Under the pieces are notes generated by a model. That model saw only the letters and a program-made list of their open reading frames with translations. It did not search any database and was not told where the DNA came from. A stretch of 28,573 nt of DNA from a virus. Taxonomy: Duplodnaviria; Heunggongvirae; Uroviricota; Caudoviricetes. Positions 6,671 through 18,333 of the stretch are shown one piece after another. A program made the position numbers and the translations under genes. The stretch lies in the IMG/VR virus record IMGVR_UViG_2896607866_000006, one strand, 5' to 3'. The first letter of the stretch is position 1, and every line of letters starts with the position of its first letter.

Positions 6671-7159
6671 ATGTTGGATGTATTTACTCCATTGTTGAAA
6701 CTTTTTGCTAACGAGCCACTCGAAATACTTATGTATACGATTATCATTTTTGGTCTCACTCTCTGGCTGATACCGAAAGAGTTTACTGTCGCATTCAATG
6801 CTTATACTGAAATACCTTGGCTCTTTCAGATTATCGTTTTTGCCTTTTCTTTCGTGGTCGCCATTTCCTTCTCAAGATTGCGAGCACATATTCAAAAGCA
6901 TTATTCATTACTACCAGAGCAACGAGTATTGCTTCGTTTATCTGAGAAAGAAATCGCTGTATTTAAAGATTTCCTTAAAACAGGAAATCTTATTATCACT
7001 TCTCCTTGCCGTAACCCGGTTATGAAAAAATTAGAACGGAAGGGCATCATTCAACATCAGAGTGATAGCGCAAACTGTTCTTATTATCTCGTCACCGAAA
7101 AATACTCCCATTTTATGAAGTTATTCTGGAACAGCAGGAGTAGACGTTTTAATCGTTAG
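6671..7159 (+). CDS. sieB: Superinfection exclusion protein SieB-like, 162 aa, membrane protein
   Basis: Start MLDVFTPLLKLF; two hydrophobic helices (IIIFGLTLWLI, LFQIIVFAFSFVVAISF); the upstream in-frame extension of the track ORF has no support. Confidence 0.6.
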   Translation: MLDVFTPLLKLFANEPLEILMYTIIIFGLTLWLIPKEFTVAFNAYTEIPWLFQIIVFAFSFVVAISFSRLRAHIQKHYSLLPEQRVLLRLSEKEIAVFKDFLKTGNLIITSPCRNPVMKKLERKGIIQHQSDSANCSYYLVTEKYSHFMKLFWNSRSRRFNR

Positions 7160-7311
7160 CTTACTGTGTGCTTCTCCAACCATCGGCGCGCACCAGTTTC
7201 GGTTTTAAATGTTTTGCTTTTGGTATACGTCATGGCAGTGAACGTTCCATCCTGGTTGGGGAACACGCCGCACACCAGGGATTCGTTGTTGCCGAGGTCG
7301 ATTTTTTGCAT
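7156..7311 (-). CDS. ydaF: YdaF-like small protein, 51 aa (not in ORF track)
   Basis: Hand translation MQKIDLGNNESLVCGVFPNQDGTFTAMTYTKSKTFKTETGARRWLEKHTVS; convergent with sieB with overlapping stops. Confidence 0.45.
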   Translation of the reverse strand: MQKIDLGNNESLVCGVFPNQDGTFTAMTYTKSKTFKTETGARRWLEKHTVS

Positions 7312-7321
7312 TTTGCGAATC

Positions 7322-7456
7322 TCACATCTTGTTGCTGTGTATAGCGACTTCTGCCTGCCAGAGATCCCAGTCGTTGCTGCGTAAAGCCTGCACAGCTTGG
7401 TTGTAAGTGATACCGCAACAATCCATCAAATACTGAACTACTTCGTAATGCACCAT
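7322..7456 (-). CDS. ydaG: YdaG-like small protein, 44 aa
   Basis: Internal start MVHYEVVQYLMDCCGITYNQAVQALRSNDWDLWQAEVAIHSNKM within the 60-aa track ORF. Confidence 0.45.
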   Translation of the reverse strand: MVHYEVVQYLMDCCGITYNQAVQALRSNDWDLWQAEVAIHSNKM

Positions 7457-7746
7457 CTTATCTCTCCCCTTAACGCCGGGTGGCGGAACTGAAACCTGCT
7501 GCACTGCAAAATCTGAACCCTGCCGTCATGTTCATACGCCTCGGGCTGGCTACTTAACCCCTGACCACTGCCTGGTAACTCGAAGTATTGCCCTGCGTTC
7601 TGTGGGGCGGGGTGGGTTGGTAGGTATATAATGTACTTTGTGTTCATTGATGTAAAGTACTTTAAGTACATTTTGTGTGTAAAAAAATGAGATGGGATAA
7701 AGTGAAGCACAAACCCGGAGGGGGACGCTACCGGATTTATGCTGGT

Positions 7747-8166
7747 TTAAGAGGCTTTTTGTTTTTTCTTTCGTGCTAGCTCTTCGTAAATTGCATTGTA
7801 CTTCTGTTTTTTCTCCTCAAGAGTTTTTAAAAGTTCATCTGTCTCACTGTCAGGGAGCTCGTCCAGAAGGTCAATGATGATTTTTTGTCTTGGATTTAAC
7901 TCCTGATAGAAACGTACCTGTCCACTTTCTTCTGTATCCTCTCCCAAAAGATAGGTTGGTGTTGTTCCAATGAGTGTTGCTAATTCCCTTAATTTCTCTC
8001 GGCGAGGAATTGTTTCGCCATTAAACCATTTGCTAACCGCTTTTGGTGTTAATTTCATTCGACGGGCAATTTCTGCCTGCCTTCCATGTTGTTCATAACC
8101 AGCGTTTTCACAGGCTAGCGCAAGCCTACTGGCGAACTCTTTACGCGCTTTATCTTCATGAACCAT
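7747..8166 (-). CDS. racR: Prophage repressor, XRE-family HTH (cI-like, RacR-like), 139 aa
   Basis: HTH segment QAEIARRMKLTPKAVSKWFNGETIP; divergent from a cro-like gene across a short repeat-containing intergenic region. Confidence 0.55.
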   Translation of the reverse strand: MVHEDKARKEFASRLALACENAGYEQHGRQAEIARRMKLTPKAVSKWFNGETIPRREKLRELATLIGTTPTYLLGEDTEESGQVRFYQELNPRQKIIIDLLDELPDSETDELLKTLEEKKQKYNAIYEELARKKKQKAS

Positions 8167-8245
8167 AAGTTCAATGATATTCGCTCTTGAATGTACTGTC
8201 AGTTCTGTTATAGCATGTACTCAAAGTTCACATTGTGAGGGTGAT
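8167..8245. promoter_or_regulatory. Divergent racR / ydaS promoter-operator region with repeated ATGTACT heptamers
   Basis: ATGTACT at 8191-8197 and 8214-8220, between divergently transcribed repressor and cro-like genes. Confidence 0.35.
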
Positions 8246-8500
8246 ATGAACCAGAAAACACTTGAAGATGTAATCAAAACTGTTCGCGTTTCTGTTGTGG
8301 CCGACGTTTGTGGTGTCAGCCAAAGAGCAATCTACAAATGGATGGATAACGGAAAATTGCCTCGCACAGAATATACCGGCGAAACAAATTACGCTGAAAA
8401 AATCGCTCATGCATCAAACGGATTATTTTCTGCTGATGTAATTTTAACTATTGGCAGAAATAAAACTACTACGAAAAAGCTGATGGGAGTTGATTCATGA
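8246..8500 (+). CDS. ydaS: Cro/cII-like HTH protein YdaS
   Basis: Start MNQKTLEDVIKTV with GAGGG RBS; HTH segment VADVCGVSQRAIYKWMDNGKLP; ATGA overlap with ydaT. An upstream alternative start at 8174 is possible. Confidence 0.55.
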   Translation: MNQKTLEDVIKTVRVSVVADVCGVSQRAIYKWMDNGKLPRTEYTGETNYAEKIAHASNGLFSADVILTIGRNKTTTKKLMGVDS

Positions 8501-8919
8501 AAATCAAGCATGAGCACATCGAGTCAGTGTTGTTAGCCCTGGCAGCCGAAAAAGGGCAGGCATGGGTAGCCAATGCCATTACTGAAGAATATCTGCGCCA
8601 GGGGGGCGGCGAATTGCCCCTGGTACCAGGCAAGGACTGGAATAATCAGCAGAATATCTATCACCGTTGGTTGAAAGGTGAAACGAAAACGCAAAGAGAA
8701 AAAATTCAGAAGCTGATCCCAGCAATTCTGGCAATCCTTCCGCGCGAGCTGCGTCACCGACTCTGCATCTTCGATACCCTGGAACGCCGTGCATTACTGG
8801 CGGCGCAGGAAGCGTTAAGTACGGCAATTGATGCGCATGATGATGCAGTCCAAGCCGTTTACCGGAAAGCGCATTTCAGCGGCGGCGGGTCTTCCGACGA
8901 TTCTGTCATTGTTCATTAA
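8497..8919 (+). CDS. ydaT: YdaT-like protein, 140 aa
   Basis: 140-aa ORF translationally coupled to ydaS; matches recalled Rac YdaT length and N-terminus MKIKHEHIESV. Confidence 0.55.
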   Translation: MKIKHEHIESVLLALAAEKGQAWVANAITEEYLRQGGGELPLVPGKDWNNQQNIYHRWLKGETKTQREKIQKLIPAILAILPRELRHRLCIFDTLERRALLAAQEALSTAIDAHDDAVQAVYRKAHFSGGGSSDDSVIVH

Positions 8920-8931
8920 GCAAAAGTTTCC

Positions 8932-9789
8932 ATGCTGTTTGTGCTTATTCTAAGCCACCGGGCAGCATCATACGGGGCAATTATGGCCGCATTACCATAC
9001 ATGCAACTGTACATAGCTGATTACCTGGCTGACACCATGCATTTGTCAGCAGAGGAGCATGGTGCGTATTTGTTGCTGATGTTCAATTACTGGCAAACAG
9101 GAAAGCCAATACCTAAAAACAGGCTGGCAAAAATTGCCCGTCTGACTAACGAGCGATGGGCTGATGTTGAACCATCCTTGCAGGAGTTTTTTTGCGATAA
9201 CGGCGAGGAATGGGTGCATCTTCGGATTGAGGAAGATCTGGCATCAGTCAGGGAAAAATTAACCAAAAAATCAGCCGCAGGAAAAGCATCTGTTCAGGCC
9301 AGAAGAAGCAGAAAGGAAGCAGATGTTCAAACAAAACAAGAGAGAAATTTAACAGGTGTTCAAACAGATGTTGAAGTGGTGTTTGAACATGATGTCAACA
9401 CAAAGGCAACTAATAAAGATACAGATAAAGATCTAAAAACAGATCCCCCCCTAAATCCCCCCCGGGGGAATCGAGGTGTCAAAAAGTTTGACCCTCTGGA
9501 TATTGCTTTGCCGAACTGGATTTCTGTCTCGCTTTGGCGTGAGTGGGTTGAATTTCGCCAGGCATTGCGAAAACCGATTCGAACGGAGCAGGGCGCTAAC
9601 GGGGCGATACGGGAGCTGGAAAAATTCCGCCAGCAGGGTTTTTCACCTGAGCAGGTGATTCGACACAGCATCGCCAATGAATACCAGGGCTTGTTCGCGC
9701 CGAAAGGTGTTCGACCTGAGACGTTACTCCGACAGGTTAACACCGTCTCGTTACCGGATAGTGCGATCCCGCCAGGCTTCAGGGGGTAA
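8932..9789 (+). CDS. ydaU: YdaU-like replication-module protein (DUF1376-like), 285 aa
   Basis: ORF directly upstream of a DnaC-like ATPase gene; basic/acidic low-complexity central linker; lambdoid replication-initiator position. Confidence 0.5.
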   Translation: MLFVLILSHRAASYGAIMAALPYMQLYIADYLADTMHLSAEEHGAYLLLMFNYWQTGKPIPKNRLAKIARLTNERWADVEPSLQEFFCDNGEEWVHLRIEEDLASVREKLTKKSAAGKASVQARRSRKEADVQTKQERNLTGVQTDVEVVFEHDVNTKATNKDTDKDLKTDPPLNPPRGNRGVKKFDPLDIALPNWISVSLWREWVEFRQALRKPIRTEQGANGAIRELEKFRQQGFSPEQVIRHSIANEYQGLFAPKGVRPETLLRQVNTVSLPDSAIPPGFRG

Positions 9790-15642: not shown

Positions 15643-15673
15643 CTGACTGTTAAAGCATTTTTAATATGATCAT

Positions 15674-16012
15674 CTATTTTTTGGTGCTATAGACTTTTTC
15701 GCCCGAAAAGTCTGGAGCGACCCAAAAGTTAATATTAAACTGAGCATCATCGCTTAGTTCAACACGGTGCCAGTATTGTGGTGGGCTTGTTGCAAAAGCG
15801 CCAGCATTAATGACTACTTTTATCTCCGGTTCAGTAGCATTCTCATCAGTAAAACCATAATATGTTACAGTGCCTTCCATTACGCACAACTGCCCAAAAA
15901 CACCTGCTGCTGTATTATGATGTGTTAATAACGCTGAAGGTACGTTCTCTTTTGTGAAGAACGGAGTTGAGCGTTTGATTACCCAATCTTTAGGAATTCT
16001 CTTGTGTGTCAT
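15674..16012 (-). CDS. DUF1971 / YeaR-like small cupin-type protein, 112 aa
   Basis: Start MTHKRIPKDW with GGAGGAGGTGG RBS; segments RSTPFFTKENVPSA, GFTDENATEPE and FNINFWVAPD resemble recalled E. coli YeaR (RSTPFW ... FNIDFFVAPE). Confidence 0.45.
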   Translation of the reverse strand: MTHKRIPKDWVIKRSTPFFTKENVPSALLTHHNTAAGVFGQLCVMEGTVTYYGFTDENATEPEIKVVINAGAFATSPPQYWHRVELSDDAQFNINFWVAPDFSGEKVYSTKK

Positions 16013-16021
16013 AACCACCTC

Positions 16022-16056
16022 CTCCAAAAGATGCATTAAAAATGCATCTTTTGGAG
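16022..16056. promoter_or_regulatory. Perfect 15-bp-arm palindrome overlapping the RBS of the YeaR-like gene
   Basis: ctccaaaagatgcat (taaaa) atgcatcttttggag; the minus-strand GGAGG Shine-Dalgarno lies inside one arm; no flanking T-run, so not a terminator. Confidence 0.4.
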
Positions 16057-16825
16057 GGTTATGTCAAGCTGTTATGAAACACATAATTGATATGTTGATT
16101 AGAGGAGAAGATAGAATAAATATGGTTGTTTTTCGTATAACTATTTGTTTTACTTTTAGTTTATGCATTCTGTGTGTTAGGAATAAGTTATTAAAGTTTA
16201 ATCAAAAAATCTCGATGTAGTCCACATAGATTACTGTTACTGAACCTTATTGTGTGTATTAGTTGTGTTCTGAAATTTCAGCTTAATTATTTATGATGTA
16301 TTTTTTAACGATAAATATTTTCCCAGGATACCTTTACTGTGTATATAAATAAATTATATACGCATAAATAATGTAAAGGCGTCCTTTTAGATATATCTTA
16401 TCAAATGTTAATGACTTGAGTGGGAAATATGATTCCAGCAACTTATCATGTGGCTACTTTATAAAAATAATGCCCATATAAAACAACAAGCGAAAAGGAT
16501 TACGGATAAAAAAGGAGCGAGATGTGCGAACTTGTTATTTTCCATGTTTAACCACCTTAAATAATTGATGATGACGGGATGATTGCATCTGTAATGCTTT
16601 TATTGAAATGTTATGATAAAAAAGAACTTTTGCATAACATTAAAATGTAATTTATCTAATCGTTTTTAATAATAAGTGTCGTATTTCTATCCTTGTACCA
16701 GCTATTTGATATGTAGTGTTTGTTCATGCTATGTGGGGCTTTACACCATAGCCAGTTTATTTATACTTTATTCGTCAGCCTGAACAACTGGCATCTGCTG
16801 CGCTGCGCCATCGAGAGATTGAGAA

Positions 16826-17425
16826 ATGGCGCATATACAACTGGTCAAACAAACCTCTTCTGGTTTACTTCTCCCGGCGACGCCGGAGAGTTGCGATTTT
16901 CTGCATCAAATCAAAATAGGTGAGTGGATACACGCAGACTTTAAGCGTGTGCGTAACTACGCATTCCACAAGCGTTTTTTCAAACTCCTGCAACTGGGAT
17001 TCGATTACTGGACTCCGGTCGGTGGGGCGATCACGCCTCGCGAACGAGAACTGCTGTCTGGTTTCGTTGATTACCTGTGCGAATCAGTTGGTCGGGAACA
17101 CACGCCAGCCCTGAGTGATGCCGCAGAGCAATACCTTAACACCGTTGCGACTCGTAGAACCCGGGATACGGCGTTGCTAAAGTCGTTTGAGGCTTTCCGC
17201 GAGTGGGTAACCATTCAGGCCGGATTTTACACCGAGCATATTTATCCGGACGGTAGCCGTGGGCGTCGGGCAAAATCCATCGCTTTTGCGAATATGGACG
17301 AAGTCGAGTTTCAGCAGGTTTATAAATCTGTACTGAATGTGTTGTGGAACTGGATTCTGTTCCGTAAATTCTCCTCTCAGGAGGAAGTTGAAAATGTGGC
17401 CGCACAACTACTGGAGTTTGCGTAA
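16826..17425 (+). CDS. Hypothetical lambdoid nin-region protein, 199 aa
   Basis: Upstream of and coupled (TAATG) to a ybcO-like gene; first ORF after the AT-rich non-coding region. Confidence 0.45.
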   Translation: MAHIQLVKQTSSGLLLPATPESCDFLHQIKIGEWIHADFKRVRNYAFHKRFFKLLQLGFDYWTPVGGAITPRERELLSGFVDYLCESVGREHTPALSDAAEQYLNTVATRRTRDTALLKSFEAFREWVTIQAGFYTEHIYPDGSRGRRAKSIAFANMDEVEFQQVYKSVLNVLWNWILFRKFSSQEEVENVAAQLLEFA

Positions 17426-17715
17426 TGGTGAATTTACGTAAAGCGGCTAAAGGCCAGATGTGCCAGATCAGAATCCCTGGCTACTGCAATCACAATCCCG
17501 AAACCTCTGTGCTGGCGCATTACAGGCTGGCGGGGACGTGCGGAACAGCGACAAAACCACATGATATGCAGGCGGCGATAGCCTGTAGCTCATGCCACGA
17601 TCTAATCGACGGGCGGGTAAAAACCAGCGATTACACCAAAGAAGAATTGCGCCTGATGCATGCTGAAGGGGTTTTTCGCACACAAGAAATCTGGAGAAAG
17701 AAAGGTCATTTATGA
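17425..17715 (+). CDS. YbcO-like putative nuclease (Cys/His-rich), 96 aa
   Basis: Cys/His pattern CQIRIPGYCNHNPE ... HYRLAGTCG ... CSSCHDLIDGR; same length as recalled DLP12 YbcO; position immediately before the Q-like gene. Confidence 0.5.
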   Translation: MVNLRKAAKGQMCQIRIPGYCNHNPETSVLAHYRLAGTCGTATKPHDMQAAIACSSCHDLIDGRVKTSDYTKEELRLMHAEGVFRTQEIWRKKGHL

Positions 17716-18254
17716 TTTACCCAACGAATACAGGAAAAAGCGGAGAACACCTTCGCCTCACCACGCTGGAAAGTGTCTGGATTCAGGGAAAACTACGTAT
17801 GTGGGGGCGCTGGTCGTATATTGGCGGTGGCAGGTCAGGGAATATGTTCAATCAGTTGTTGGCATCCAAAAAACTGACGAAAACAGCCATTAATGAAGCC
17901 CTGCGCAGAATGAAAAAAGCGGGAATAGAGAAAGCTGAGCTGGAAGCGTTTTTGCGAGAGATGATCAACGGCAAGCAAAAGAGCTGGCTGGCGCATTGTA
18001 CTGATGCAGAGGCGTTATGTATTGATCGAGTCATAAGTGAGGTGCTGGCAGAGCATCCAGGATTGATTTGCATTCTCCGGCAACGCTATGAAGGGCGGGG
18101 GATGACTAAGCGCAAAATGGCTGAATTGCTAAATGATGCACACCCAGAGTGGTGTTTTAGCACATGCGAAAAACGGATTGCTAATTGGTTAGCTGTTGCT
18201 GAGTATGCCCTATATATTCCCATGCGTGAATCATTTGCTGAGAAAATGGCTTGA
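17712..18254 (+). CDS. Late-gene antiterminator Q-like protein (phage 82/QuuD-type), 180 aa
   Basis: N-terminal KLRMWGRWSY resembles the LERWGAW motif recalled from QuuD-type Q proteins; ATGA coupling to the upstream gene; a strong intrinsic terminator lies 80 bp downstream. Confidence 0.45.
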   Translation: MIYPTNTGKSGEHLRLTTLESVWIQGKLRMWGRWSYIGGGRSGNMFNQLLASKKLTKTAINEALRRMKKAGIEKAELEAFLREMINGKQKSWLAHCTDAEALCIDRVISEVLAEHPGLICILRQRYEGRGMTKRKMAELLNDAHPEWCFSTCEKRIANWLAVAEYALYIPMRESFAEKMA

Positions 18255-18333
18255 TTTCTTACGTATAAACTGCTTCAATTTTGCTATGCTTCGCAAAGCT
18301 GTATCGCGAGGCGGATTGCAGACATGGACATCG

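What the first reader, a model, noticed from the sequence alone, without database searches (positions are those of the whole stretch)
7620..8245. Repeated ATGTACT / AGTACAT motifs flank the prophage repressor gene: candidate operator sites
ATGTACT occurs at 8191-8197 and 8214-8220 in the divergent racR / ydaS intergenic region and again at 7631-7637 downstream of racR. Nearby, 7655-7664 is a perfect 10-bp palindrome AAAGTACTTT followed by AAGTACAT. Such spaced half-sites around a cI-like repressor gene are the expected signature of repressor operators controlling the lysogeny switch.
Basis: seen in the sequence. Interest (0 to 1): 0.45.

Follow-up and report, generated by a model that had tools for sequence, protein, structure and literature searches.

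The report
HK022-type operators around prophage repressor

Summary
The motifs are real. All four ATGTACT copies in the 28.6-kb window lie in two clusters flanking one repressor gene.

The genes are not racR/ydaS. Homology to K-12 Rac stops at 7622 and resumes at 8491. The segment between is a different immunity cassette. Its repressor DNA-binding domain, cro-like gene, operator sequences and spacings (24, 24 and 33 bp) match phage HK022, whose CI binding to OL/OR is documented.

A site model trained only on HK022/HK75 annotations picks exactly these five sites as the top window hits. The same layout recurs in 27 of 31 loci from other species that encode the same recognition helix. The half-site cores are nearly invariant while the DNA around them drifts.

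Operator function is therefore strongly supported by homology, but binding by this protein was not tested.

The one unusual feature is the repressor itself. It has 139 aa and carries a DicA-like helical tail instead of HK022 CI's self-cleaving S24 domain. The cassette occurs in 1047 of 5426 complete E. coli genomes with only generic annotation.

Verdict: a new member of a known kind, of low to moderate interest.

The parts
7623..8490 (.). Exchangeable immunity cassette: OL, repressor gene, OR and cro-like gene. It lies between segments 98-99% identical to K-12 Rac.
   Evidence: BLASTN against K-12 Rac aligns 7001-7622 and 8491-9200 only. The cassette is 98-99% identical in phages vB_EcoS-666R9 and Tritos. 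It is shared with Tritos over 7465-8520 between different flanks. It is intact in 1047 of 5426 complete E. coli genomes.
7632..7646 (.). OL1 operator, TGTACTTTGTGTTCA. It lies between the -35 and -10 of the leftward promoter and overlaps the -10.
   Evidence: 13.0 bits with the HK022-trained matrix. Aligns with HK022 oL site 2201-2215, TGTACTTAAAGTTCA.
7656..7670 (.). OL2 operator, AGTACTTTAAGTACA, 24 bp from OL1. It abuts the -35 of the leftward promoter.
   Evidence: 17.6 bits. Aligns with HK022 oL site 2225-2239, AGTACCAATAGTACA. All 20 OL half-site core columns are invariant across 5 diverged sequences.
7628..7656 (-). PL-like leftward promoter: TTTACA (7656-7651), 17-bp spacer, CATTAT (7633-7628). 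It drives the small ORF/ydaF/kilR/recET arm. The predicted start near 7621 coincides with the left cassette junction.
   Evidence: Consensus scan. The position is equivalent to the annotated HK022 pL -35 and -10 (alignment). The transcription start is inferred.
7706..7743 (-). Strong RNA hairpin immediately after the repressor stop codon. It may be a terminator or stabiliser of the repressor transcript.
   Evidence: RNA fold -19.4 kcal/mol, z = -5.6, 0 of 200 shuffles fold as well. No U-run follows directly, and the terminator scan did not call it, so function is inferred.
7747..8166 (-). Prophage repressor gene, 139 aa. HK022-CI-type HTH domain (aa 1-75), disordered linker, DicA-like helical C-terminal hairpin. 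No S24 peptidase domain.
   Evidence: ORF. Pfam HTH_3. 47% identity to HK022 CI over aa 4-102, with no match to its C-terminal part. NCBIfam DicA model matches aa 29-137 at E=2e-15, below the cutoff. BLASTP to K-12 DicA gives E=5e-15, tail included. AF2 model has pLDDT 83.
8159..8173 (.). OR3 operator, TGAACCATAAGTTCA. Its centre lies on the repressor start codon (CAT, 8164-8166).
   Evidence: 20.0 bits. Identical to HK022 oR3 and oR1. A site over the start codon is present at the same offset in most related loci.
8174..8202 (-). PRM-like repressor promoter: CTGACA (8202-8197), 17-bp spacer, TATCAT (8179-8174). It predicts a leaderless or near-leaderless repressor mRNA. The -35 lies inside OR2.
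   Evidence: Consensus scan, 10 of 12 matches. Sequence read on the minus strand. The OR2 spacer bases TC and the -10 bases ATA are invariant in the alignment. Function is inferred.
8192..8206 (.). OR2 operator, TGTACTGTCAGTTCT, 33 bp from OR3. It lies between the PR -35 and -10.
   Evidence: 14.3 bits. Aligns with HK022 oR2, TGTACTATCAGTTCC.
8187..8214 (+). PR-like rightward promoter for cro/ydaT/ydaU/ydaV. The -35 is TTGAAT (8187-8192). The -10 is TATAGC (8209-8214), or TAGCAT shifted by 2.
   Evidence: Positional equivalence to the annotated HK022 pR -35 TTGACT and -10 CATAAT. It is a weaker consensus match than in relatives and was not called by the scan.
8216..8230 (.). OR1 operator, TGTACTCAAAGTTCA, 24 bp from OR2. 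It covers the predicted PR transcription start region.
   Evidence: 17.3 bits. Aligns with HK022 oR1. OR half-site cores are invariant at 25 of 30 columns against 16 of 81 elsewhere, p=1e-9.
8246..8500 (+). cro-like gene, 84 aa, 62% identical to HK022 Cro. It is not ydaS.
   Evidence: Its HTH (VSQRAIYKW) resembles the repressor's (TPKAVSKW).
8490..8507 (.). Perfect YdaT (CII-analogue) box, TTGATTCATGAAAATCAA, over the ydaT start codon at the right cassette junction.
   Evidence: 0 mismatches to TTGATTN6AATCAA. The motif is defined in PMC9986795, and its role in activating a reverse promoter towards racR is described in PMC11879457.

Best explanation
The motifs are half-sites of five 15-bp dyad-symmetric operators with consensus TGWAC-N5-GTWCA. 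They belong to an HK022-type immunity cassette carried by a Rac-family prophage. Dimers of the 139-aa repressor bind through an HK022-CI-type helix-turn-helix. Binding to the OL1/OL2 pair (24 bp apart) blocks the leftward PL-like promoter. Binding to the OR1/OR2 pair (24 bp apart) blocks the rightward PR-like promoter of cro, ydaT and the replication genes. This keeps the prophage silent and makes the cell immune to phages with the same operators. OR3, 33 bp further on, sits on the repressor's own start codon and transcription start, and OR2 covers the -35 of the repressor promoter, so the repressor probably limits its own synthesis. The Cro-like protein, 62% identical to HK022 Cro, most likely binds the same sites to shut off the repressor promoter during lytic growth. 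Shown here: the sites, their geometry, their conservation, their homology to HK022 operators, and their movement together with the repressor gene. Inferred: binding by this particular protein, cooperativity through its DicA-like tail, the promoter assignments, and autoregulation.
For: (1) The extended dyad is far above chance: 3 exact matches against 0.00 expected. A matrix trained only on HK022/HK75 annotated operators ranks the five sites as the top five hits in the window, with 5 sites of at least 13 bits against 0.33 expected. (2) The sites correspond one-to-one with the GenBank-annotated HK022 oL and oR sites, with identical spacings of 24, 24 and 33 bp and the same relation to pL and pR. 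(3) HK022 CI binds adjacent OL/OR operators cooperatively and loops OL-OR in vivo (PMC8053113, citing Carlson and Little 1993). (4) The repressor DNA-binding domain is 47% identical to HK022 CI, with recognition region TPKAVSKWFNGETIPR against TPKAISKWFNGESIPR. Cro is 62% identical. (5) Footprint test: half-site cores are invariant at 25/30 columns against 16/81 elsewhere in OR (p=1e-9), and at 20/20 against 18/59 in OL (p=1e-8). The three operator differences between the window and phage Tritos all fall at central positions 7-10. (6) Cross-species test: all 31 full-length loci encoding the TPKAVSKW helix have at least 2 sites just upstream of or over the start codon, 27 of 31 have the 24/33 triple, and 18 of 31 have a 23-25-bp pair downstream. 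Density is 18 sites/kb in the OR zone, 0.31/kb elsewhere and 0.04/kb in shuffles. Two retrieved loci without the helix have no sites. (7) Sites and repressor are exchanged together. K-12 Rac, with RacR in the same position, has WTAGGC-N3-GCCTAW dyads in both equivalent places and none of these sites, and the reverse holds for the window. (8) Diverged short-repressor cassettes in Salmonella keep the layout even with a HigB/HigA-like insertion between the repressor gene and OL.
Against: No binding or reporter data exist for this protein; everything rests on homology and conservation. The C-terminal domain is unrelated to that of HK022 CI, so cooperative pairwise binding and OL-OR looping cannot simply be carried over. 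The long-repressor relatives have extra sites: an OL3 53 bp beyond OL2, and in HK022/HK75 an OFR after cro. Both are absent here. The PR -10 (TATAGC) is a poor consensus match. The predicted repressor promoter has its -35 inside OR2, which does not fit lambda-style activation by repressor bound at OR2. OL1 is the weakest site (13 bits). The 31 loci were retrieved with a peptide pattern that includes the recognition helix, so the shared helix is by construction. The DNA sites were not used for retrieval.
Confidence: 0.9

Rival explanations
1. The sites are operators of a RacR orthologue, i.e. the K-12 racR/ydaS switch.
For: The genomic position is the same, between ydaF/small ORF and ydaT/ydaU/ydaV of a Rac-family prophage. 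The dyad geometry, 6-N3-6, is the same as the footprinted RacR operators (PMC9638921).
Against: DNA homology to K-12 Rac is interrupted exactly over 7623-8490. The repressor matches RacR only over 33 HTH residues, and the cro-like protein shows no significant match to YdaS. The RacR motif WTAGGCN3GCCTAW has 0 matches in the window even with 2 mismatches. K-12 Rac has no site of at least 12 bits with the HK022 matrix.
Confidence: 0.01
2. The repeats are not protein-binding sites. They are chance or promoter-element similarities in AT-rich intergenic DNA.
For: The 7-mer count alone is not significant: 4 against 2.5 expected. The motifs overlap -10 and -35 hexamers, which are themselves conserved.
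Against: The conserved columns form dyads of fixed 15-bp geometry at five places, one of them inside a coding start. Promoter hexamers do not explain this. The same dyads at the same offsets occur in 31 of 31 loci from many genera, at about 470 times the shuffled density. HK022 sites of this sequence are documented repressor targets (PMC8053113).
Confidence: 0.02
3. The sites are bound mainly by another regulator, either the Cro-like protein alone or the CII-analogue YdaT, and the 139-aa protein acts elsewhere or through different sequences.
For: Cro proteins of lambdoid phages share operators with their repressors. YdaT binds within the racR-ydaS intergenic region in K-12 (PMC11879457). The Cro-like HTH resembles the repressor's.
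Against: Across species the sites track the repressor's recognition helix, including loci with different neighbours to the right. The YdaT box is a different motif, TTGATTN6AATCAA, and it is found at 8490-8507, not at these sites. ydaT is shared with K-12 Rac while the sites are not. Cro sharing the sites is part of the main explanation rather than a contradiction of it.
Confidence: 0.05

Closest known systems
Phage HK022 immunity region (CI, Cro, OL1-3, OR1-3, OFR; GenBank X16093; Carlson and Little 1993 as cited in PMC8053113)
   Same: Same operator consensus; OR3 is identical (TGAACCATAAGTTCA). Same spacings: OL1-OL2 24 bp, OR1-OR2 24 bp, OR2-OR3 33 bp. Same overlap with pL and pR, and OR3 lies over the repressor start codon. 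The repressor DNA-binding domain and Cro are homologous (47% and 62% identity).
   Different: The repressor has 139 aa instead of 235. Its C-terminal domain is a DicA-like helical hairpin, not the S24 self-cleaving oligomerisation domain. There is no OL3 or OFR site. The flanking genes are Rac-type (ydaF, kilR, recET; ydaT, ydaU, ydaV), not nun/cIII/cII.
K-12 Rac prophage RacR/YdaS/YdaT switch (PMC9638921, PMC11879457)
   Same: Same prophage family and same slot in the genome. Divergent repressor/cro genes followed by ydaT. 6-N3-6 dyad operators, one of which overlaps the repressor start codon. The YdaT box is retained at the ydaT start.
   Different: The repressor and Cro are unrelated beyond the generic HTH. 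The operator sequence differs, WTAGGC-N3-GCCTAW against TGWACY-N3-RGTWCA, with no cross-matches. K-12 spacing is 25-26 bp, against 24 bp here.
DicA/DicC of the Qin prophage, and the Gifsy-type short non-cleavable repressors (PMC3121763)
   Same: The repressor has the same length class and architecture: an N-terminal HTH_3 plus a short helical tail. It aligns with DicA over 112 residues including the tail, E=5e-15. It lacks an S24 cleavage domain, as do the Gifsy repressors, which are inactivated by antirepressors (PMC3121763).
   Different: The score against the NCBIfam DicA model is below its cutoff (56.8 against 101 bits). The DicA operators are a different sequence (TTAGY...RCTAA type). No antirepressor or LexA box was identified in the window.
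Phage lambda OL/OR switch
   Same: Divergent repressor and cro genes. Operator clusters on both sides of the repressor gene overlap PL, PR and PRM. Adjacent sites are about 24 bp apart. The repressor mRNA is predicted to be leaderless.
   Different: 15-bp rather than 17-bp operators, of a different sequence. OR2-OR3 spacing is 33 bp. OR2 overlaps the -35 of the predicted repressor promoter, so lambda-style positive autoregulation is not evident.

Membership tests
HK022-type immunity module | 15-bp dyad operators with the HK022 consensus (TGWACY-N3-RGTWCA) | tested here: met
   A matrix trained only on HK022/HK75 annotated sites scores the five window sites at 13.0-20.0 bits, and they are the top five hits in 28.6 kb. 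OR3 is identical to HK022 oR3.
HK022-type immunity module | Operator layout: an OL pair 24 bp apart over pL; OR1-OR2 24 bp apart over pR; OR3 33 bp further on, over the repressor start codon | tested here: met
   Window site starts are 7632/7656 and 8159/8192/8216. HK022 starts are 2201/2225 and 3000/3033/3057.
HK022-type immunity module | Repressor DNA-binding domain and Cro homologous to HK022 CI and Cro, with the same recognition helix | tested here: met
   CI N-terminal domain 47% identical (E=6e-32), helix TPKAVSKWFNGE against TPKAISKWFNGE. Cro 62% identical (E=2e-34).
HK022-type immunity module | CI carries a LexA-like S24 C-terminal domain (RecA-stimulated self-cleavage, cooperativity) | tested here: not met
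   No Pfam S24 hit. No alignment to the HK022 CI C-terminal part. The model shows a helical hairpin at aa 92-138. Long relatives do carry PF00717.
HK022-type immunity module | Accessory operators OL3 (53 bp beyond OL2) and OFR (after cro) | tested here: not met
   No site of at least 9 bits at those positions in the window or in Tritos. They are present in HK022, HK75, and in Klebsiella, Citrobacter and Salmonella phages.
HK022-type immunity module | The repressor physically binds the sites and confers immunity to HK022-immunity phages | not testable with these tools
   Needs EMSA or footprinting and superinfection assays.
K-12 Rac RacR/YdaS switch | The repressor is orthologous to RacR and the Cro analogue to YdaS | tested here: not met
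   BLASTP finds only 12/33 residues within the HTH and no significant match to YdaS. DNA homology breaks over 7623-8490.
K-12 Rac RacR/YdaS switch | RacR operators WTAGGC-n3-GCCTAW in the intergenic region (PMC9638921) | tested here: not met
   0 matches in the window with up to 2 mismatches. K-12 has four such dyads.
K-12 Rac RacR/YdaS switch | Rac-family gene context (recET, kilR, sieB, ydaF on the left; ydaT, ydaU, ydaV on the right) | tested here: met
   Annotation of the 99.9%-identical E. coli 1428 locus. The flanks are 98-99% identical to K-12 Rac.
DicA-type short prophage repressors | Full-length similarity to DicA, including the C-terminal helical tail | tested here: inconclusive
   BLASTP to K-12 DicA gives 29% identity over 112 aa, E=5e-15. 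NCBIfam NF007257 covers aa 29-137 at E=2e-15 but scores 56.8 bits, below the 101-bit cutoff. The architecture is shared, but the protein is not an equivalog.
DicA-type short prophage repressors | Induction through an antirepressor rather than self-cleavage, as shown for Gifsy repressors (PMC3121763) | not tested
   Absence of an S24 domain is shown. No antirepressor gene was identified, and the only CTGT-N8-ACAG match is at 25091.

The most novel reading that the evidence does not exclude
This cassette is a natural domain swap. An HK022-type DNA-binding domain and its full OL/OR operator geometry are run by a DicA-type helical tail instead of the S24 domain. If the short repressor still binds the 24-bp pairs cooperatively and loops OL-OR, then two unrelated oligomerisation domains serve one operator architecture. 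In that case the roughly 19% of E. coli genomes carrying the cassette would be immune to HK022-immunity phages. Their prophage would also be uncoupled from direct RecA-mediated cleavage and induced, if at all, through an antirepressor that has not been identified.
Probability: 0.35. Interest if true: 0.45.

Novelty: new member of a known kind. Interest (0 to 1): 0.25.

Why it matters
It replaces a wrong label (racR/ydaS) with the correct one. This immunity cassette is present in about one in five complete E. coli genomes and is annotated only as 'helix-turn-helix protein'. The analysis gives base-level predictions of five operators and three promoters, so the switch can be tested directly. It predicts cross-immunity between these Rac-family prophages and HK022-immunity phages. 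It also shows that the TPKAVSKW helix / TGWAC-N5-GTWCA operator pair is conserved across Enterobacterales, Vibrionaceae, Pasteurellaceae and beyond. The short DicA-like repressor with HK022 specificity is a ready-made natural experiment on how far operator spacing depends on the oligomerisation domain. None of this changes the general picture of lambdoid switches.

Tried and rejected
(1) The K-12 RacR operator reading was rejected, because the motif is absent and the proteins are not orthologous.

(2) The 10-bp palindrome AAAGTACTTT as a site in its own right was rejected. It is not conserved; relatives have AAAGTACCAA. It arises from the OL2 left half-site AGTACT together with flanking A/T bases.

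(3) A third OL site and an HK022-like OFR site were looked for and not found in the window.

(4) A LexA box or antirepressor that could explain induction was looked for. Only one loose CTGT-N8-ACAG match turned up, at 25091, with nothing near a candidate gene. An attempt to translate a KilA-N gene by transferring coordinates from strain 1428 failed, because the window diverges from that genome beyond 11747. This was not pursued further.

(5) The terminator scan found nothing in 7400-8400. The hairpin after the repressor gene was found only by folding and lacks a directly adjacent U-run.

(6) The fold search of the repressor model against the PDB gave only generic Xre-type HTH matches, best E=1.7e-3, and did not identify the C-terminal hairpin. 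The sequence search of the PDB found only the P22 C2 N-terminal domain.

(7) The primary HK022 operator paper (PMC206910) is not held, so HK022 binding is cited second-hand through PMC8053113 and the GenBank annotation.

(8) A literature search for this protein accession, phage Tritos or vB_EcoS-666R9 found no study of this switch.
Full report
**Observation.** ATGTACT occurs four times in the 28,573-bp window: at 7631-7637, 8191-8197 and 8215-8221 on the plus strand, and at 7665-7671 on the minus strand, where it reads AGTACAT on the plus strand. The palindrome AAAGTACTTT is at 7654-7663, not 7655-7664. The count alone is unremarkable: 2.5 copies are expected, and 26 of 100 shuffles reach 4. 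But every copy lies in one of two ~40-bp clusters on either side of one gene. Each copy also extends into a 15-bp imperfect dyad. The repeat finder shows two pairs in register exactly 24 bp apart. The pattern WGTACTNNNWGTWCA has 3 exact matches against 0.00 expected.

**What the genes are.** The surrounding genes belong to a Rac-family prophage: intR, xisR, recT, recE, racC, kilR, sieB and ydaF on the left, and ydaT, ydaU and ydaV on the right. However, DNA homology to K-12 Rac (98-99%) stops at 7622 and resumes at 8491. The 868 bp in between hold both motif clusters, a 139-aa HTH repressor gene (7747-8166, minus strand) and an 84-aa cro-like gene (8246-8500). The repressor matches K-12 RacR over only 33 residues of the HTH. 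The cro-like protein has no significant match to YdaS. This is a heteroimmune cassette sitting in the racR/ydaS slot.

**The cassette is HK022-type.** A sensitive DNA search of phage genomes found the cassette at 98-99% identity in phages vB_EcoS-666R9 and Tritos. It also found ~70% identity between window 8006-8416 and the cI 5' end, OR and cro of phage HK022. The HK022 GenBank record X16093 annotates two oL and three oR repressor-binding sites, together with pL and pR. Extracting them gives a one-to-one correspondence:

| Site | HK022 | Window | Window coordinates |
|---|---|---|---|
| OL1 | TGTACTTAAAGTTCA | TGTACTTTGTGTTCA | 7632-7646 |
| OL2 | AGTACCAATAGTACA | AGTACTTTAAGTACA | 7656-7670 |
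| OR3 | TGAACCATAAGTTCA | identical | 8159-8173 |
| OR2 | TGTACTATCAGTTCC | TGTACTGTCAGTTCT | 8192-8206 |
| OR1 | TGAACCATAAGTTCA | TGTACTCAAAGTTCA | 8216-8230 |

The start-to-start spacings are identical in both: 24 bp within OL, 33 and 24 bp within OR. The repressor's N-terminal domain is 47% identical to HK022 CI, with recognition region TPKAVSKWFNGETIPR against TPKAISKWFNGESIPR. The Cro-like protein is 62% identical to HK022 Cro. HK022 CI is reported to bind adjacent operators in OL and OR cooperatively and has been shown to loop OL-OR in vivo (PMC8053113, citing Carlson and Little 1993).

**Statistics independent of the window.** A position weight matrix was built only from the HK022 and HK75 annotated sites. 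It ranks the five window sites as the five best hits in the window (13.0-20.0 bits). At 13 bits or more, 0.33 hits are expected and at most 3 were seen in 200 simulated sequences.

**Conservation.** The same layout is present in HK022, HK75, Tritos, two Klebsiella phages, Citrobacter phage Omnitron, Salmonella phage S9-5 and a Providencia phage. K-12 Rac has none of these sites.
- In alignments of these diverged regions, the TGWAC/GTWCA cores are invariant at 25 of 30 columns against 16 of 81 elsewhere in OR (p=1e-9). In OL the figures are 20 of 20 against 18 of 59 (p=1e-8).
- The three operator differences between the window and Tritos all lie at central positions 7-10.
- Salmonella cassettes with short repressors 62-65% identical to this one keep OR1-24-OR2-33-OR3 and an OL pair 24 bp apart. 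They do so even though a HigB/HigA-like pair is inserted between the repressor gene and OL.
- A scan of one genome per species returned 35 loci. All 31 full-length loci that encode the TPKAVSKW helix have at least two sites just upstream of or over the start codon. These come from Enterobacterales, Vibrio, Photobacterium, Pasteurellaceae, Pseudomonas, Salinicola and an alphaproteobacterial MAG. 27 have the 24/33 triple, and 18 have a 23-25-bp pair downstream.
- Site density is 18/kb in the OR zone, 0.31/kb elsewhere and 0.04/kb in shuffles. Two loci without the helix have no sites.
- Caveat: the loci were retrieved with a peptide pattern that contains the helix, so the shared helix is by construction. 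The DNA sites were not used for retrieval.

The derived consensus is T-G-W-A-C-Y-W-W-W-R-G-T-W-C-A.

**Co-variation with the repressor.** K-12 Rac has a different repressor in the same slot. It carries WTAGGC-N3-GCCTAW dyads, footprinted as RacR operators (PMC9638921), both in the racR-ydaS intergenic region and downstream of racR. That motif is absent from the window even with two mismatches. Qin likewise has its own dyads on both sides of dicA. In all three cases, operators on both flanks change together with the repressor. That is what operator function predicts.

**How it most likely works.**
- *Leftward promoter.* On the minus strand, TTTACA-17-CATTAT (7656..7628) matches the position of the annotated HK022 pL. 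OL1 overlaps its -10 and spacer, and OL2 abuts its -35. The predicted start near 7621 coincides with the left junction of the cassette.
- *Rightward promoter.* The pR equivalent is TTGAAT (8187-8192) plus TATAGC or TAGCAT (8209-8216). OR2 lies between the hexamers and OR1 lies over the start. This -10 is weaker than the CATAAT of relatives.
- *Repressor promoter.* CTGACA-17-TATCAT (8202..8174, minus strand, 10 of 12 matches) would start transcription at or next to the AUG, giving a leaderless mRNA as for lambda cI. Its -35 lies inside OR2, and OR3 lies over the start. This suggests negative rather than positive autoregulation.
- *Other elements.* A strong hairpin (7743..7706, -19.4 kcal/mol, z=-5.6) follows the repressor stop codon. 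A perfect YdaT box, TTGATTCATGAAAATCAA, covers the ydaT start at 8490-8507 (motif from PMC9986795). In K-12 this box lets the CII analogue activate a reverse promoter towards the repressor gene (PMC11879457).

The promoter roles, cooperativity and autoregulation are inferences.

**What is unusual.** The repressor is not a full HK022 CI. It has 139 aa instead of 235. It lacks the S24 peptidase domain found in the long relatives. Its C-terminal part aligns with DicA of Qin: BLASTP E=5e-15 over 112 aa, and the NCBIfam DicA model matches at E=2e-15 but below its cutoff. An AlphaFold2 model (pLDDT 83) shows a five-helix HTH domain, a disordered linker (aa 77-88) and a helical hairpin (aa 92-138). 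Fold search gave only generic Xre-type matches. DicA, RacR and the Gifsy repressors are grouped as short, non-cleavable repressors, and those of the Gifsy phages are inactivated by antirepressors (PMC3121763). No antirepressor or LexA box was identified here. The short-repressor cassettes also lack the OL3 and OFR sites of the long-repressor phages.

**Distribution and novelty.** The cassette is intact in 1047 of 5426 complete E. coli genomes and is always generically annotated. I found no paper on it. The operator family, its geometry and its mode of action are known from HK022. This is a new, widespread and unannotated member of that family with a swapped C-terminal domain, placed in a Rac-family prophage.

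**Verdict.** The interpretation as operators of the lysogeny switch is supported. The gene identification is wrong. Overall interest is low to moderate.

Noticed in passing
window 8490-8507: A perfect YdaT (CII-analogue) box, TTGATTCATGAAAATCAA, centred on the ydaT start codon. It lies exactly where homology to K-12 Rac resumes (8491). The reverse promoter it would activate must lie inside the foreign cro-like gene and was not identified.
   Followed up: partly
L002 1830-1844 and 1855-1869 (K-12 BW25113 Rac, about 100 bp beyond the racR stop codon): Two RacR-consensus dyads 25 bp apart (ATAGGTAATGCCTAA, ATAGGCTATGCCTAA) lie downstream of racR, in the position of an OL. The RacR operator paper (PMC9638921) describes sites only in the racR-ydaS intergenic region and does not mention ydaF, ydaG, kilR or leftward transcription. 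These may be an undescribed OL controlling the kilR/recET arm.
   Followed up: partly
window 7706-7743 (minus strand): A stable hairpin (-19.4 kcal/mol, z=-5.6) lies directly after the repressor stop codon. No U-run follows immediately. It could be a terminator or stabiliser separating the repressor transcript from the PL operon.
   Followed up: partly
window 7505-7621: The roughly 115-nt G+C-rich stretch between the predicted PL start and the first small leftward ORF is 98% identical to K-12 Rac, although the promoter and operators upstream are exchanged. It might hold a nut/put-like antitermination element. Not examined.
   Followed up: no
L012 3053-3720 and L013 3088-3755 (Salmonella enterica): In diverged short-repressor cassettes, a HigB-toxin/HTH-antitoxin-like gene pair is inserted between the repressor gene and the OL pair. 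This is the position of rexAB in lambda.
   Followed up: no
window 8209-8216: The PR -10 region reads TATAGC/TAGCAT in the window and in phage Tritos, whereas all long-repressor relatives have CATAAT or TAATAT. The short-repressor cassette seems to have a weaker lytic promoter.
   Followed up: no
window 11748 onward: The window is collinear with E. coli strain 1428 at 99% only up to 11747. It then diverges, with patchy 92-95% matches at 15673-18316. Another mosaic junction therefore lies just right of the replication genes. A repressor protein 100% identical to this one is also encoded in Shigella flexneri SFBU0723 (L016).
   Followed up: no
L015 2100-2200 and 2597-2770 (K-12 Qin): Qin has TGTTAGYYATRRCTAACA-like dyads both in the dicC-dicA intergenic region and downstream of dicA. 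This is the same two-sided operator arrangement as in Rac and in this cassette.
   Followed up: no
L015-type relatives P0015, L006, L007: Several relatives have an in-frame upstream start that adds about 15 residues (MSELIVHAS...) ahead of the MVHEDK start used here. This is reminiscent of the N-terminally extended GfhR* seen on induction of Gifsy-3 (PMC3121763). The window has a stop codon upstream, so no extension is possible.
   Followed up: no
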